Assembly: GCA_964016885.1 (NCBI GenBank)
Contig: OZ024749.1
Span: 43,834,001 to 43,898,000, forward strand
Length of the DNA: 64,000 nucleotides
Source of the DNA: Eledone cirrhosa
Taxonomy: Eukaryota
Direction: 5' to 3'
The translations under genes and the position numbers were made by a program. Positions 949-54,800 of the stretch are shown here, piece after piece (within the stretch, counting starts at the first letter, position 1; the number at the start of each line of letters is the position of its first letter). A model generated the notes under the pieces. That model saw nothing but the letters and a program-made list of their open reading frames with translations. It ran no database searches and had not been told where the DNA came from.

Positions 949-992
949 TCCTGATGATTTCTCACGAATGAAACAGTTCTAGTCCTGTAGAA
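949..992 (+). ncRNA. Type I hammerhead-ribozyme-like motif (family H1)
   Basis: CTGATGA 951-957, stem II TTC/GAA, GAAA 970-973, stem III ACAG/CTGT, GUA triplet 987-989, 2-bp stem I; related copies at 24915-24960 and 49221-49268. Confidence 0.55.
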
Positions 993-1394
993 GTTCTTCG
1001 ATATTAAAACATTTATACTCTGCTATGTATTGAGTACCTTACTTACTGTGGTTACCTCCGATTCAACCCGGAATAACTTATATATATATATATATATATG
1101 TATGTGTGTGTGTGTGTGTGTGTGTGTGTGTGTGTGTGTGTTTAACTGTGGATGTGTGTGTGTGTGTGTGTGGATGTGCGTATGTATGTGTGTACGCCCA
1201 ATTGAAACATATCGATCCCCAGTGCTTATTTAAGTACTTGTTTTATAAAAAGACATAAACAAAGCAAATAGGGACAGGTGGAAGGAAAGATGAGGGAGAG
1301 ATGGGAAGGACAAGGGAGGGGAGTTGATGGAAGAGAGAGAGAGGAAGCGATGACTGGCTTCATTCATAAAAGCATTGGTCAACCCGAGCCTATA

Positions 1395-48800: not shown

Positions 48801-51800
48801 TATATATATATATATATATATATATATATATATATATATATATATATATATATATATATATATATATATATATAAACAATGAGTTATATGGTTTGTTGAT
48901 TATTATTCAACAAAGTTAATTTTATAACAGATTTGAAGTACTCTACAGGTTTTATCTGGAGTATTATTAATATTAACAATATTAATAAATAGAAAATATC
49001 TTTATAATACCATATTTATTTTATTATACATATTTCAAGGACACAAAATTTTAGTGTGCTTTCATCAGATAAAATATATTTGGTGTTAAGATATTGACAT
49101 AGTTTAGTGTAGACCTAATAGTATATAAATTTTGTGTCCTTGAAATACGTATAAATAAATAAATATGGTATTATAAATATGTTTTCCAGTTATTAATATT
49201 GTATATATATATAAAACAAAATTTTACAGGACTAGAACTGTTTCATTCTTATTAAATCATCAGGAATGCCAGTTGATATAGTACGTCTTTGCTATTTGGG
49301 GAAATCTTTATGCATAAATATAGATAAATATACAAAAATATATATACAAATAAATATTGAGCGGAAAAAGATATATGTATATATGGGGAGTGAGGGAGCC
49401 ATATGTAGTATGGAAAACACAGTATATTGTATATATATATATATATATATATATATATATATATATATATATATATACCAAATACATATTCTTCTTAGGA
49501 ATATGTCTTGCCTATGTACAAAGCAAAACCTAGTCAGTAGGCACCTATTAACCAAATATACACTCCAATCCACTACCCCTACCCTATCCTCCCACTAACA
49601 CCACCCTCTCTCTGTAAAGTTGGTACCACAACATCCAGTCCAAATAAATGAGATAATGAGATTGAGATTGTGTAGGTGTCATGACAAAAAACACACAGTC
49701 CACGCTGTAATGTGGTCGTGTAGGTAACACGGTAAAAAGTTCCCAGTTCCACACTGTAAATGTGGTTGGTGTTAGGAAGGGCATCCAGCCGTAGAAAACC
49801 TGCCAGATAGTCCTATATGAGCGAGGCACGGTCACCCGACCAACCTTGCCTCAAGTGGGACAACTCCTGTCTAACCCATGCTAGCGTGGAAGATGAACGT
49901 TAAACGAGGATGATGATGATGATGATGATGATTATTATGCCAAGACCATGACAACTTCACTAGTGTTGGTACCACAATAAAATGCACAATTCTACCAGCA
50001 AGGCAAATATAAAATGATGGAGACGATATAAAACACTTCATGTGAAGGGAGACAACTCTGTCGAGATATTCAATAATGTGGTAGTGCTGGCGCCACAACG
50101 AAAGCACCCTGCCCAACCTGTAAGATGGTAATGCTGGTGCACAAACGAAAAATACCCAACTCACTCTGTAAGGTGGTAGTATTGGTGCCACAACAAAAGC
50201 ACCCAGCCCACCTTGTAAGGTGGTGCCATAACTAAAAGCACCAAGTTCACTCTGTAAGGTGGTAAATGCTCTCAGGTATATGTTGTAAAGTAGTTAGGAA
50301 GGGCATCCATAGAAACTAAACCAAAAGAAAAAAATATGAGCAGGACCTAGTCACCTGACTGGTCTGGCCTACACACTTACATCCAAACACACACACACAC
50401 ACACACACACATCTATTTACACATATATGCATCCACACGCGCTCATCCATATACATAGTTACAGACATACACACACATTCATATACCTACACACACATAT
50501 ACCAAGAATCCAAAGTGAACAGCTGCACTACTTACCTTCAGGCCAATCCCTTAGTTTTATCTCACAGCACGTCAGTGGGGCACCAACAGAACCGACACTT
50601 AAATCAGTAACTGAAAGTATACAGTTAGATATACATACGTGTGTGTGTAGAGAGAGAGAGAGAGAGAGAGAGAGATGGAAAATAAATGCAAAGCAGTAAT
50701 GGTGATGATGGTGGGGAGGAGGTGGTACGGGGGAAGAGGAGGGAGGCAGAGGAGAGGATGAGTAGGTTGAGAAGGGGATGGGGGGGGGAGAGGAAAAGGC
50801 AGAGAAGGTGGTGTAAGGTGAAGGAGGAGCAAAAGGATGATGATAATGATGATGATGATGTATCATAAAACCAGGGACAATTTCAGGTAGGTTTGATATC
50901 GAAAGGGCTAAAATAAGCACAATGTTACGTTTATTATTTGTTGTTGTTTACCTTCAGTGATAGTCCCAGCGCCACAGGTCTCAGTAAGGCCATACCCTTG
51001 ACCAACAGGGCAACAAAAACAAATATTCATAAACTTCTGTGTAGCTTCGGACAGTGGAGCACCACCACTTAACATCAAACGGACATTGCCACCCAGTATC
51101 GCTTGAACTTTCTTGAAAAAAAGCCTACAAAGAAGACATGAAATAAATATTAAAAATATTACGATCACAATCGTGATGATGATGGTGATGGTGACAATGA
51201 TGGTTAAAGAGAGAGAGGGGGTAAAAAAGAAAAAGAAGGATAAAGAGAGGGAGAGAGGGGATAAAGAGGAGAGAAAGAGAGCTAAAGAGTGAGGGGGGAT
51301 AAAAAGAGAGCAAGAAAAAGGAGGGAAAAAGAGTGAAAGGAAATAGGGAGAAAGAGAGAGAGGAAAGAGGGAGAACAGAAGAGAGAGAGAAAGATAGAGA
51401 GGGGAAGGGAGGGAGAGAAAGAGATATAATGATAATGAAAATAAAAATTATTGTGTAGTGCTCAGGTGCACTACAACTCATCAAAGGTACATGTATAGTA
51501 CATAGAATAAGTGAACAGTGTACGAGTCATGATATACACACACATGCATGCATGCGTGTGTATGGAAGGTGTAGTGTTGAGAGAGACAGCGAAAGAAAGA
51601 GAGAGAGATAGAAAGAGGAAGAGAGAAAGAGAACTAGACATACCTATTGAATATCAGAGTATCATAGCCATTATCTAGGCTGCGTCTTTTGTAAGCATAA
51701 GCAAACTCAAATACAGCCCTGGTCAGTTTCCCCTGAGAATTAATATTATCCCAGACGCTTTTATACAGCCGGTCCATAATCAACTGAAATATATTAGAGT

Positions 51801-54800
51801 TGGGAGTGAGAAAAAAAAAACAAGTCAAATTAGCTGATTACTTCAATATATCATCATCATCATTAACAACATTATCATCATCAACATCAACAGTTAACAC
51901 CCATTTTCCCATGCTTTTATAAGTTAGACAGGCTGTCATATAATGAGACAAGTCAGGTCAAGTGATAATGCATTGCTCATATGGATCTCTACTTCTTAAT
52001 ACCAACCACAGAGCGTGGATTGGGTGTTTTTTTTTCGTCATGTCACCAGCACGACCACCTTACAAGGTGGACTGGGTACTTTCTTTGTCATGTCACTAGC
52101 ACAACTAATTTACAAGGTGGACTGGGTGATTTTTTTTTTTTTGTTGTGTCACCAACACAACCACCATCACACAGATTATTTTACTAGTTTCAGTCATTTG
52201 ACTGCAGTCATGCTGAGGCACCGGCATAATTTTTTAAAGTCTGCTATTTATTTTATCAAAATCTTTTTGTTAAACTGCTAAGTTCCGTAACAAACACACA
52301 CAGACAATATGGTTGGCGTTACGACCCGCCCGTCCCCTCAATCTATCTTATTTCTCATTCTTTCTTCTAATGAAGGACTAGCGTCCGAAATATTAAGACC
52401 CTCTTCCAGGTATATCAAGCATTAACCTAATATATCCCTTCCATATACCGATTGTGTTATTATTTCTATTTACCTTTTACATACATATATATATATATAT
52501 AGACATACATACACACACATAAATATATACACATGCACACACATATATACATACACATGCACACACATACACACAATATATATATATATATATATATATC
52601 GAAACAAATGAGATCGTGTAGGTGTCACGACAAAAAAAACACACAGTCCACGCTGTAATGTGGCTGTGTAGGCAACACGGTAAAAACCTCCCAGACCCAC
52701 ACTGTAAATGTGGTTGGTGTTAGGAAGGGCATCCAACTGTAGAAAACCCGCCAGACAGTCCTATGCGAGCAAGACAATCACTCTTGCCTCAAGTGGGAAA
52801 ACCCCCGTCCAAACCCATGCAAGCGTGGAACACGGACGTTAAACGTTGATGATGATGATGATGATGATGATGATGATGATGATGATGATGATGATGAGCG
52901 AGAGAGAGAGACATAGATACACATATACACATCATACATACATATGGTAGCTTGAAACAAAGCAATTCTTCACTCCAAAGAACTGAAAGGAAGGATATAA
53001 GACAAAAATGTCCAAACTTACCGGTACCGCTGCCATTAAAGTTGGCTTCAGTTTACTAGCATCGCCCTGGCAACCTCGTTTTATTTTACTTGACTGAAGA
53101 AAAAAGAAAACAGAAACAATTATCAAAAAATTAGCAATTAAACAATTAATTTGAAACCAACACTAAAAAAATAATCTATTTTCTAATAATTTTTGATTAA
53201 ATATAATGGTTTTTGATTTAAGCACAAGGCCAGCAATTATCCAGTGCATTACTGGTACTTTATTTTATCGACCCCGTAAGGATGAAAGGCAAAGTGAACC
53301 TCAGCGGGATTTGAACTCAGATCGTAAAGGGACGTAACTATGCTGGAAAGCATGGCGTCCGACCCTCTACCGATACTGCCAATCCACAATTTGATTAAAT
53401 ATAATGGTTTCTGATTTAAGCACAAGATCAACAGTTTTGGGAGGAAGGGAAAGTCGATTAAATCAACCCCAGTGAATTACTGGTACTTTATTTTATCAAC
53501 CCTGTAAGGATGAAAGGTAAAATTAACCTCGACAAGAGTTGAACTCAGAATGTAAAGGGATGTAACTATATGCTGCAAAGCATTTTCTCTTATGCTCTAC
53601 CCATAGTTGGAGAAAATGCTTTGTGACATATAGATACATCCCTTTATGTTCTGAGTTGAAATCCTGTCAAGGTTAGCTTTGCCTTTCATCTTTACAGGGT
53701 CAATATAATAAAGTACCAGTAATGCACTGAGGGTGGACGTAACTGACTTTCCCCTTCCCTTCAAAATGATGATAAACAAAAGTAGATTTACCTTGTCTGT
53801 CAATGTCAAAGCTGATGAGTAGCCAATTGCAGTACCATGTGCCAAACAAGATAATTCTGGTGAGAGAAGAAAAGATAGGTTAAGTATTTATAAATCACAT
53901 GAATTCTTCAACATACACACAAACACACACTCACAAACACAAACACACAAACACAAATATTCAGAGTTAATTTCTTCCAGTAGGAGTCAAGACTATTTCT
54001 TCCTCATACACACCATGTTTTAATATGGTTTCTAAGGTTGGGTATCCCTTCATAGCAGAGTGCACTGGGTGCAGTTTAGCACCAGCACTAGAGAGGTTTC
54101 CTACCAGAGATACATTTCCTACAGCCAATGCCTTTCATGCCATAATGCCCTTCCTAGCATAGAAGCCCTTCCTAGCACAGAAGCCCTTCCTAGCACAGAA
54201 GCCCTTCCTAGCACAGAAGCCCTTCCTAGCACAAAAGCCCTTCCTAGCACAGAAGCCCTTCTTAGCACAGAAGCCCTTCTTAGCACAGAAGCCCTTCTTA
54301 GCACAGAAGCCGTTCCTAGCACAGAAGCCGTTCCTAGCACAGAAGCCCTTCCTAGCACAGAAGCCCTTCCTAGCACAGAAGCCCTTCCTAGCACAGAAGC
54401 CCTTCCTAGCACAGAAGCCCTTCCTAACACAGATGCCCTTCCTAGCACAGAAGCCCTTCCTAGCACAGAAGCCCTTCCTAGCACAGAAGCCCTTCCTAAC
54501 ACAGAAGCCCTTCCTAACACAGATGCCCTTCCTAGCACAGAAGCCGTTCCTAGCACAGAAGCCCTTCCTAGCACAGAAGCCCTTCCTAACACAGAAGCCC
54601 TTCCTAGCACAGAAGCCCTTCCTAACACAGAAGCCCTTCCTAACACAGAAGCCCTTCCTAGCACAGAAGCCGTTCCTAGCACAGAAGCCGTTCCTAGCAC
54701 AGATACCTTTCCTAACACAGATACCCTTCCTAGCACAGAAGCCCTTCCTAACACAGATACCCTTCTTGCCCTTCCTAACACAGACACCTTTCCTATCATA

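What the first reader, a model, noticed from the sequence alone, without database searches (positions are those of the whole stretch)
949..52398. Dispersed system of sequence-unrelated hammerhead-like motifs sitting in palindromes and next to (TA)n tracts
Seen: about six otherwise unrelated repeat sequences each contain a type I hammerhead topology (short stem I, CUGANGA-like core, stem II, GAAA, tiny or palindromic stem III, NUH). Locations are 951/24915/49221, 2390, 6698, 30099, 49019 and 23568/52363, with remnants at 29646, 30353 and 38205. Most abut (TA)n or (TG)n, and four lie in inverted repeats. A Penelope-like RT fragment with its own inverted duplication is at 24347. Established: Penelope-like elements carry minimal hammerheads with palindromic stem III that cleave as dimers, and they often form inverted partial repeats. 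Inference: this genome hosts a large, diverse population of non-autonomous Penelope-derived ribozyme/hairpin units, here roughly one per 6 kb, several inside host introns.
Basis: partly seen in the sequence, partly recalled or inferred. Interest (0 to 1): 0.85.

Follow-up and report, generated by a model that had tools for sequence, protein, structure and literature searches.

The report
Penelope retrotransposon hammerheads saturate octopod genome
The motifs are real hammerhead-ribozyme sequences at the ends of Penelope-like retrotransposons, a known arrangement, but here they occur about once per 10 kb (an estimated 300,000 per genome), and whether they cut RNA is untested.

Summary
The window (an octopod; TEX11 gene at 6338-33771) holds type I hammerhead motifs from nine repeat families. 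Six are the terminal repeat (pLTR) ends of protein-coding Penelope-like elements: four Hydra-type, one Neptune-type, one unplaced. One (30099) is a 543-nt ORF-less tandem unit, i.e. a non-LTR retrozyme. One (30353) is only weakly linked to an ORF, and one (9511) was not tested for a link. So most units are 5'-truncated ends of coding families, not separate non-autonomous elements. PLE hammerheads, (TA)n targets and head-to-head inversions are all published, including a Hydra element with a hammerhead in Octopus. What I did not find in print: scale and ends. Forty random 10-kb stretches gave 41 strong motifs (shuffles about 1), or about 3e5 per genome in some 16 families; the largest count I read is 126,247 (axolotl). 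In family A, short copies end at the 5' edge of helix I, 30 nt below a TATA-like motif (replicated in held-out loci). Three families carry fixed core changes. Rfam misses all of them, no RNA data were available, and a cleavage-site footprint in the retrozyme failed its held-out test.

The parts
950..1077 (+). Family A lineage: hammerhead (core from 951, predicted cut after 989) plus 88-nt tail; 5' end at the core edge, so the 5' strand of helix I is missing; flanked by (TG)n and (TA)n
   Evidence: 93% to PLE-A pLTR end over 135 nt
2265..2553 (.). Family B head-to-head palindrome; hammerhead on both arms (cores 2390 +, 2361 -), core CCGACGA (U4C); short arm ends about +38, long arm about +105, both in (TA)n
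   Evidence: Hydra-type ORF upstream in L191
6338..33771 (+). Host gene TEX11 (ZIP4 homologue), first to last matched exon
   Evidence: tblastn of three cephalopod-type TEX11 proteins, 20+ exons in order
6463..6919 (.). Family C palindrome in TEX11 intron 1; minimal hammerhead on + arm (core 6698, family-wide A6U, this copy also G12A); - arm begins near the cut site and lacks the core
   Evidence: EN upstream on the same strand in 14 of 15 EN loci
9511..9582 (-).
23506..23690 (+). Family F (Neptune-type) pLTR end in a TEX11 intron; core and GAAA both mutated in this copy
24347..24716 (-). Internal RT fragment of Hydra-type PLE-A (93 aa, 24347-24625) with an inverted duplicate (24626-24715), (TA)n on both sides
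   Evidence: (100% aa identity at 12 other loci)
24890..24960 (-). Family A lineage hammerhead (core from 24956), core intact, helix I 3 bp; antisense to TEX11
29520..29705 (.).
29716..30242 (.). Family D head-to-head palindrome of a 543-nt tandem unit (retrozyme type); hammerhead on both arms (cores 30099 +, 29975 -); arms end at +72 and +186
30275..30600 (-).
38200..38225 (-). Doubtful remnant: only a 3' half resembling family E
   Evidence: no BLAST match to any family core
48961..49217 (.). Family E palindrome; full hammerhead on - arm (core from 49068), 3' half only on + arm
   Evidence: Hydra-type ORF upstream in L196
49221..49267 (-). Family A lineage hammerhead (core from 49263), helices I and II decayed
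52324..52478 (+). Family F pLTR end; minimal hammerhead, core 52367 with G5A (8 of 30 family copies share it)

Best explanation
These are type I hammerhead motifs lying in the terminal repeats of at least six protein-coding Penelope-like retrotransposon families plus one ORF-less 543-nt tandem unit, and they were likely scattered as short, often head-to-head cDNA copies primed from cuts in (TA)n. Shown: the family links, fixed 3' ends in (TA)n, two alternative 3' ends per family, 5' ends meeting in the centre of each palindrome. Inferred: a dimeric RT/GIY-YIG protein cuts both strands of (TA)n; each end primes reverse transcription at one of two internal sites just downstream of the ribozyme; copying runs through the uncut (or religated) ribozyme and usually stops early; the two cDNAs are joined by microhomology. 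In family A the stop lies at the 5' edge of helix I, likely the RNA's start (TATA-like motif 30 nt upstream) or a folding barrier. The ribozymes probably serve the elements' own RNA, several as dimers; most solo copies are inert debris. Family D is likely moved in trans by a Hydra-type enzyme.
For: A: the hammerhead sits directly before a 758-codon RT + C-terminal GIY-YIG frame in 19 of 20 full-length loci. B: 664-aa Hydra-type frame ends about 1.3 kb upstream. E: ORF upstream in L196. F: hammerhead downstream on the same strand in 12 of 15 EN loci; C: 14 of 15. J: EN C-terminus 1.35-1.5 kb upstream in 4 of 25 loci. Compensatory changes between subfamilies: A helix I, 2 pairs; D helix II, 2 pairs. 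RNAcofold gives the dimeric hammerhead fold for D and E, nearly so for A. 3' ends: A +91 or +22 as aligned, D +72 or +186/194, B about +107 or +36/38; 4 of 4 unselected A palindromes pair one long with one short end. Two RT start sites, cutting of both strands and a predicted dimer are reported for an anole PLE (PMC11167929). 0 of 30 tail-selected A copies start at the cut site. A 5' ends at -50..-36: 16 of 27 tail-query arms, 8 of 12 bystanders, 6 of 12 held-out. Random DNA: 41 strong hits in 400 kb, shuffles 0-2; 32 of 41 near (TA)5 against 33% background.
Against: No cleavage or expression data. Rfam detects none of the motifs. Clades rest on motifs, not on a tree. H has only a motif-level ORF link in 2 of 20 loci; no parent ORF for D in 107 loci. 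The 5'-edge pile is strong only in A: B 7 of 49, D 8 of 48 then 3 of 51 held-out, and 2 of 15 in A loci picked by ORF. Monomer MFE folds of A, C and F are not the hammerhead fold. B, J and C carry core changes expected to slow cleavage (U4C lowers activity, PMC3088659). Covariation counts come from few related subfamilies and from rows I selected (15 of 44 for A; 6 for D).
Confidence: 0.85

Rival explanations
1. The units are independent non-autonomous SINE- or MITE-like ribozyme elements with their own fixed boundaries.
For: True for D: closed 543-nt unit, longest stop-free frame 83 aa, arrays of at least 28 kb. Short solo copies far outnumber ORF-linked ones in B, C, E, F. A short copies share a 5' edge.
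Against: 5' ends are nested and run continuously into coding sequence in A, B, C, E, F and J.
Confidence: 0.12
2. The head-to-head palindromes arise by fold-back or self-priming of one molecule (or on an antisense template), not by priming from both target ends.
For: Proposed for rotifer Penelopes (PMC3846280). One B junction sits in the helix I register (-60/+1, L271). Junctions show short microhomologies.
Against: The two arms end at two different fixed sites, each in (TA)n, and the arms usually overlap in content rather than abut at a fold-back point.
Confidence: 0.2
3. The motifs are chance matches in AT-rich, palindrome-rich DNA.
For: One descriptor hit (28966) is such a match; about 1 strong hit per 400 kb appears in shuffles; Rfam is silent.
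Against: 40-fold excess over shuffles in random DNA, 37 against 0-2 in flanks, multi-copy families, compensatory changes, match to published Hydra hammerhead forms.
Confidence: 0.02
4. The intronic copies are host-recruited regulators of TEX11 RNA processing.
For: Five of the named sites lie in TEX11 introns (6698, 23568, 24915, 30099, plus remnants 29646 and 30353).
Against: Density equals the genome background. The three sense-strand copies are disabled: 6698 lacks G12, 23568 has two core changes, 30099 lies in a 205-bp hairpin with its twin.
Confidence: 0.03

Closest known systems
Minimal hammerheads of metazoan Penelope-like elements (Cervera and de la Pena 2014, PMC4209133; read parts 1-2 of 4)
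   Same: Type I topology, palindromic or absent helix III, extra base after A9 and G10.1-C11.1 (families C, F), many sequence families per genome, mostly solo truncated copies, opposite-strand pairs 100-700 bp apart.
   Different: Counts there are about 2,000-9,000 per genome; the estimate here is about 3e5. A, B, D and E lack G10.1-C11.1. U4C, U4A and A6U are family-wide here; that paper's text names U3-A8 as its core variant.
Hydra clade of PLEs, including Hydra-1_Obim (Craig et al. 2021, PMC8557442; passages, section 11, supplement tables S1-S2)
   Same: RW[K/R], DKT, CxCx5C, CxxC and CxH motifs, C-terminal GIY-YIG, (TA)n target; hammerheads with a mismatch at the base of helix II and a 3-4 bp helix III; an Octopus member with a hammerhead is listed.
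   Different: PLE-A repeats every 4.7-5.3 kb because its pLTR holds about 2 kb of mixed microsatellite (Hydra elements are described as under 3 kb); many near-identical intact frames point to recent activity; at least four Hydra-type families coexist.
Non-LTR retrozymes (Cervera and de la Pena 2020, PMC7229834, passages and discussion; Li et al. bioRxiv 10.64898/2026.07.22.740005, parts 1-3 of 5)
   Same: Family D: ORF-less tandem unit, a hammerhead in each unit, 37% GC, dispersed short arrays plus long arrays, PLE-type hammerhead.
   Different: 543 nt (above the usual 150-450, inside the 51-972 range of Li et al.); PLE-style fixed 3' ends in (TA)n and head-to-head inversions; no cephalopod retrozyme came up; circular RNA untested.
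Anole Poseidon PAc in vitro system (Frangieh et al. 2024, PMC11167929; read parts 1-2 of 4)
   Same: Two internal RT start sites downstream of the ribozyme, both strands cut in AT-rich DNA, uncut RNA as template.
   Different: Tail between the two sites is 68-70 nt (A, B) or 114-122 nt (D) against 30-40; a pile of 5' ends at helix I is not described in the parts I read.

Membership tests
Type I hammerhead ribozyme | Core CUGANGA...GAAA...UH in order | tested here: met
   A, D, E, F majority cores canonical (D 30 of 30, E 25 of 30, F 22 of 30); B, J and C carry one family-wide change
Type I hammerhead ribozyme | Three helices with compensatory changes | tested here: met
   A helix I, D helix II; not counted for B, C, E, F, H, J
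Type I hammerhead ribozyme | Match to an Rfam hammerhead model | tested here: not met
   No hammerhead family at E<=10 in 19 loci, intact copies included
Type I hammerhead ribozyme | Site-specific self-cleavage | not testable with these tools
   Genomic footprint tried in D: 6 of 48, then 1 of 51 held-out; inconclusive
PLE minimal hammerhead | Palindromic helix III allowing dimers | tested here: met
   C, D, E, F, H, J palindromic; A has a 4-nt palindrome in loop III; B not palindromic
PLE minimal hammerhead | Extra base after A9 and G10.1-C11.1 pair | tested here: inconclusive
   Met in C and F; not met in A, B, D, E
Hydra-clade PLE (A, B, E, J) | RWK, DKT, CxCx5C, CxxC, CxH motifs; C-terminal GIY-YIG | tested here: met
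   A: all five (RWR variant); B: DKT, linker, CxxC, CxH; E: linker, CxxC, CxH; J: only EN C-terminal homology; Pfam GIY-YIG below cut-off, E=0.008
Hydra-clade PLE (A, B, E, J) | (TA)n insertion | tested here: met
Hydra-clade PLE (A, B, E, J) | Element under 3 kb | tested here: not met
   PLE-A hammerhead-to-hammerhead distance 4.7-5.3 kb
Hydra-clade PLE (A, B, E, J) | Placement in the RT tree | not tested
   No reference proteins were held as stored sequences
Neptune-clade PLE (F) | CX2-5CxxC linker and CCHH inside a C-terminal GIY-YIG | tested here: met
   L399, L407 frames; motif reading by eye, no tree
Nematis or other C-terminal-EN PLE (C) | Clade-specific linker | tested here: inconclusive
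   RT and C-terminal EN present (L419, L421); clade not settled
Non-LTR retrozyme (D) | Tandem units each with a type I hammerhead, no ORF, low GC | tested here: met
Non-LTR retrozyme (D) | Expressed as linear and circular RNA | not testable with these tools
   The one run search (made with PLE-A) listed no RNA holder

The most novel reading that the evidence does not exclude
This octopod genome is the most hammerhead-rich yet counted (about 3e5 motifs, about 100 per Mb, 16 or more families, several fixed for catalytic-core substitutions), and the short family A copies are strong-stop-like cDNAs that record the transcript's 5' end at helix I, so the genome itself maps where Penelope reverse transcription starts and stops; PLE-A also carries about 2 kb of microsatellite and so seeds its own (TA)n targets.
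Probability: 0.4. Interest if true: 0.65.

Novelty: new member of a known kind. Interest (0 to 1): 0.45.

Why it matters
What hammerheads do for Penelope-like elements is still open (PMC8557442, PMC11167929). A genome with about 3e5 copies in many young families offers thousands of natural insertion junctions to read the mechanism from, a panel of natural core variants to assay, an apparently active Hydra-type enzyme, and a test of selection against sense-strand ribozymes in introns. It also shows that Rfam-based annotation misses this class entirely. The kind of system is not new.

Tried and rejected
Rfam: no hammerhead match. RNA evidence: no RNA holder listed; no reads were laid; this is no evidence either way. 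Earlier findings: none. Viral contigs: no relative of the PLE-A protein. Naiad reading of the RT fragment: rejected, the EN is C-terminal with Hydra motifs. Site 28966 as a tenth unit: rejected. In vivo cleavage footprint in D: 6 of 50 5' ends at the cut site in the first set (6 of 48 on recount), but my pre-set held-out test gave 1 of 51, so the claim is dropped; 7 further held-out ends at +6 to +14 are post hoc and lie in an AT-rich palindrome. A helix I edge pile as a general rule: weak in B, unreplicated in D. The piles at -189 (A) and -341/-113 (B) are alignment artefacts of variable simple repeats. Parent ORF for D: none contiguous in 107 loci. Pfam named no PLE domain above cut-off in 10 PLE frames. 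A host gene beyond 34 kb: only 150 of 240 plus-strand frames and no minus-strand frames were scanned. Lunse et al. 2017 was not held; it is known to me from recall and from its citation in PMC6765202, and may already list such variants. Supplements of the 2026 preprint were not seen.
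Full report
Setting. The window is G000:C9:43834001-43898000 of a 3.0-Gb assembly. An exon at 23833 matches TEX11 of Octopus vulgaris (91%) and Argonauta (81%), and these proteins map 20+ exons in order on the + strand from 6338 to 33771. The animal is therefore an octopod.

Observation. The named sites read as type I hammerheads or their remnants. 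My descriptor gave 10 hits against 1.38 in 100 local shuffles, and 6 against 0.09 at score >=9. One of the 6 (28966) is single-copy and in an exon, so chance; two are twin arms. The descriptor was tuned on these sites, so I tested it elsewhere: 37 strong hits in 293 kb of locus flanks against 0-2 in 8 shuffles, and 41 in 40 random 10-kb stretches against 0-2 in 12 shuffles and 0 in reversed DNA. Rfam found none. The inverted repeats and the RT fragment are as described. 38205 is not confirmed.

What each unit is. A (951, 24915, 49221): the RT fragment is identical in protein to 12 other loci among 150 scored of 16,350 candidates. Twenty loci with long frames show a 758-codon RT plus C-terminal GIY-YIG frame with the motifs that define the Hydra clade, and the A hammerhead directly upstream in 19 of 20. 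The window copies belong to diverged subfamilies; helix I covaries among them. B (2390): 1,939 candidates; a 664-aa Hydra-type frame ends about 1.3 kb upstream; core CCGACGA in 29 of 30 copies and in 21 of 27 from a query that excluded the core. C (6698): older family, A6U in most copies; hammerhead follows the EN on the same strand in 14 of 15 EN loci. D (30099): a closed 543-nt unit, 37% GC, longest stop-free frame 83 aa, in short dispersed arrays and one array of at least 28 kb; helix II covaries with a sister subfamily; no contiguous ORF in 107 loci. E (49019): broken Hydra-type ORF upstream in 1 of 30 loci, inverted in another. F (23568, 52363): textbook minimal motif; follows a Neptune-type EN in 12 of 15 EN loci. 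J (29646): core CCGAAGA in 24 of 25, EN end upstream in 4 of 25. H (30353): multi-copy, ORF link by motif only in 2 of 20. A ninth family lies at 9511; its ORF link was not tested.

How it likely works. Shown: each family has fixed 3' ends joined to (TA)n, at two alternative sites (A +91/+22 as aligned, B about +107/+36-38, D +72/+186-194), and variable 5' ends that meet in the palindrome centre. Four of four unselected A palindromes pair a long with a short end. In the random sample 8 opposite-strand pairs all diverge from a shared centre. This fits the anole PLE, which cuts and extends both strands, starts at two internal sites and uses uncut RNA (PMC11167929). I infer priming from both target ends and joining of the two cDNAs; self-priming (PMC3846280) is the rival. 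None of 30 tail-selected A copies and none of 30 B copies begins at the cut site (nearest B end -3); one of 12 held-out A arms does. A 5' ends pile at -50..-36, the 5' edge of helix I: 16 of 27 tail-query arms ending within 360 nt, 8 of 12 bystanders, 6 of 12 held-out under a prediction written first, but 2 of 15 in ORF-selected loci. A TATA-like motif lies 30 nt above that edge; an acceptor-like site also lies there, so transcript start, folding barrier and trimming remain open. The same pile is weak in B and did not replicate in D. A cleavage-site pile in D (6 of 48) failed its held-out test (1 of 51). Cofolding gives the dimeric hammerhead for D and E, nearly for A, not for B, C, F.

The (TA)n link has two sources. 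It is the target (32 of 41 random hits near (TA)5 against 33% background; published for Hydra and Naiad elements). It is also cargo: PLE-A's pLTR holds about 2 kb of mixed microsatellite whose five landmarks keep their order across loci.

Introns. 6698, 9511, 23568, 24915, 29646, 30099 and 30353 lie in TEX11 introns. The three sense copies are disabled by core changes or by a 205-bp hairpin. With three cases this only agrees with selection against sense ribozymes.

Scale. 41 hits in 400 kb (32 with a perfect core; 20 of 40 stretches; 18 clusters, two singletons probably false) extrapolate to 3.1e5, bootstrap 1.9-4.3e5. The sample came from 18 contigs holding 2.56 of 3.0 Gb. Counts I read: axolotl 126,247, coral over 6,000, mussel about 5,000 (PMC7229834), Xenopus about 9,000, coelacanth about 4,000 (PMC4209133). 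Those used other descriptors, so the comparison is provisional.

Known or new. Minimal hammerheads in PLE ends, solo copies and opposite-strand pairs are in PMC4209133. Hydra hammerheads with the same helix II mismatch and helix III forms, and an Octopus member, are in the supplement of PMC8557442. Retrozymes as PLE derivatives are in PMC7229834 and the 2026 preprint. An Octopus repeat annotation lists 31 recently active Penelope-like families and does not use the word ribozyme (PMC13282606, passages). Searches brought up no count of hammerheads in a cephalopod and no report of 5' ends at helix I; the library lacks most subscription papers. Verdict: new members of a known kind, notable for number, family-wide core variants and readable junctions. 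Interest 0.45.

Noticed in passing
L023:5660-8200 and L021-L040: The PLE-A terminal repeat carries about 2 kb of mixed (TA)/(TG)/(CA) microsatellite with landmarks in conserved order; a donor-like site follows the stop and an acceptor-like site abuts helix I, so it may be a retained intron. The element would spread microsatellite and its own target.
   Followed up: partly
G000:C3:88369500 to beyond 88398000 (L391, L392): Long tandem array of the 543-nt family D unit, at least 28 kb (ends of the middle part not read), most hammerhead cores intact; a candidate source locus.
   Followed up: partly
L433, L443, L452, L455; window 9511-9582 and 38131-38175: A frequent hammerhead family with core CAGAAGA (U4A) and a long helix III; ORF link not tested.
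   Followed up: no
L273, L238, L448: Sister subfamily of D with a different but compensated helix II.
   Followed up: partly
window 28888-28974: TEX11 exon whose end mimics a hammerhead core; a false positive of the descriptor.
   Followed up: yes
window 831-845; L023:790-805; L121: The same short flank followed by (AT)n precedes several independent PLE insertions; another repeat's end seems to serve as a target hot spot.
   Followed up: no
window 53427-53773, 48223-48747, 20319-20561, 60759-60862, 47645-47715, 11067-11256/13756-13945: Further palindromes and inverted repeats with no match to the hammerhead families collected; some are copies of a common dispersed repeat.
   Followed up: no
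window 1-435, 14406-15647, 35426-35965, 43148-44269, 54147-54765: Minisatellites with 68, 54, 50, 20 and 18-nt units; the 54-nt one lies in a TEX11 intron.
   Followed up: no
L192, L198, L197: LTR-retrotransposon-like and DNA-transposase-like frames inserted in or beside PLE copies.
   Followed up: no
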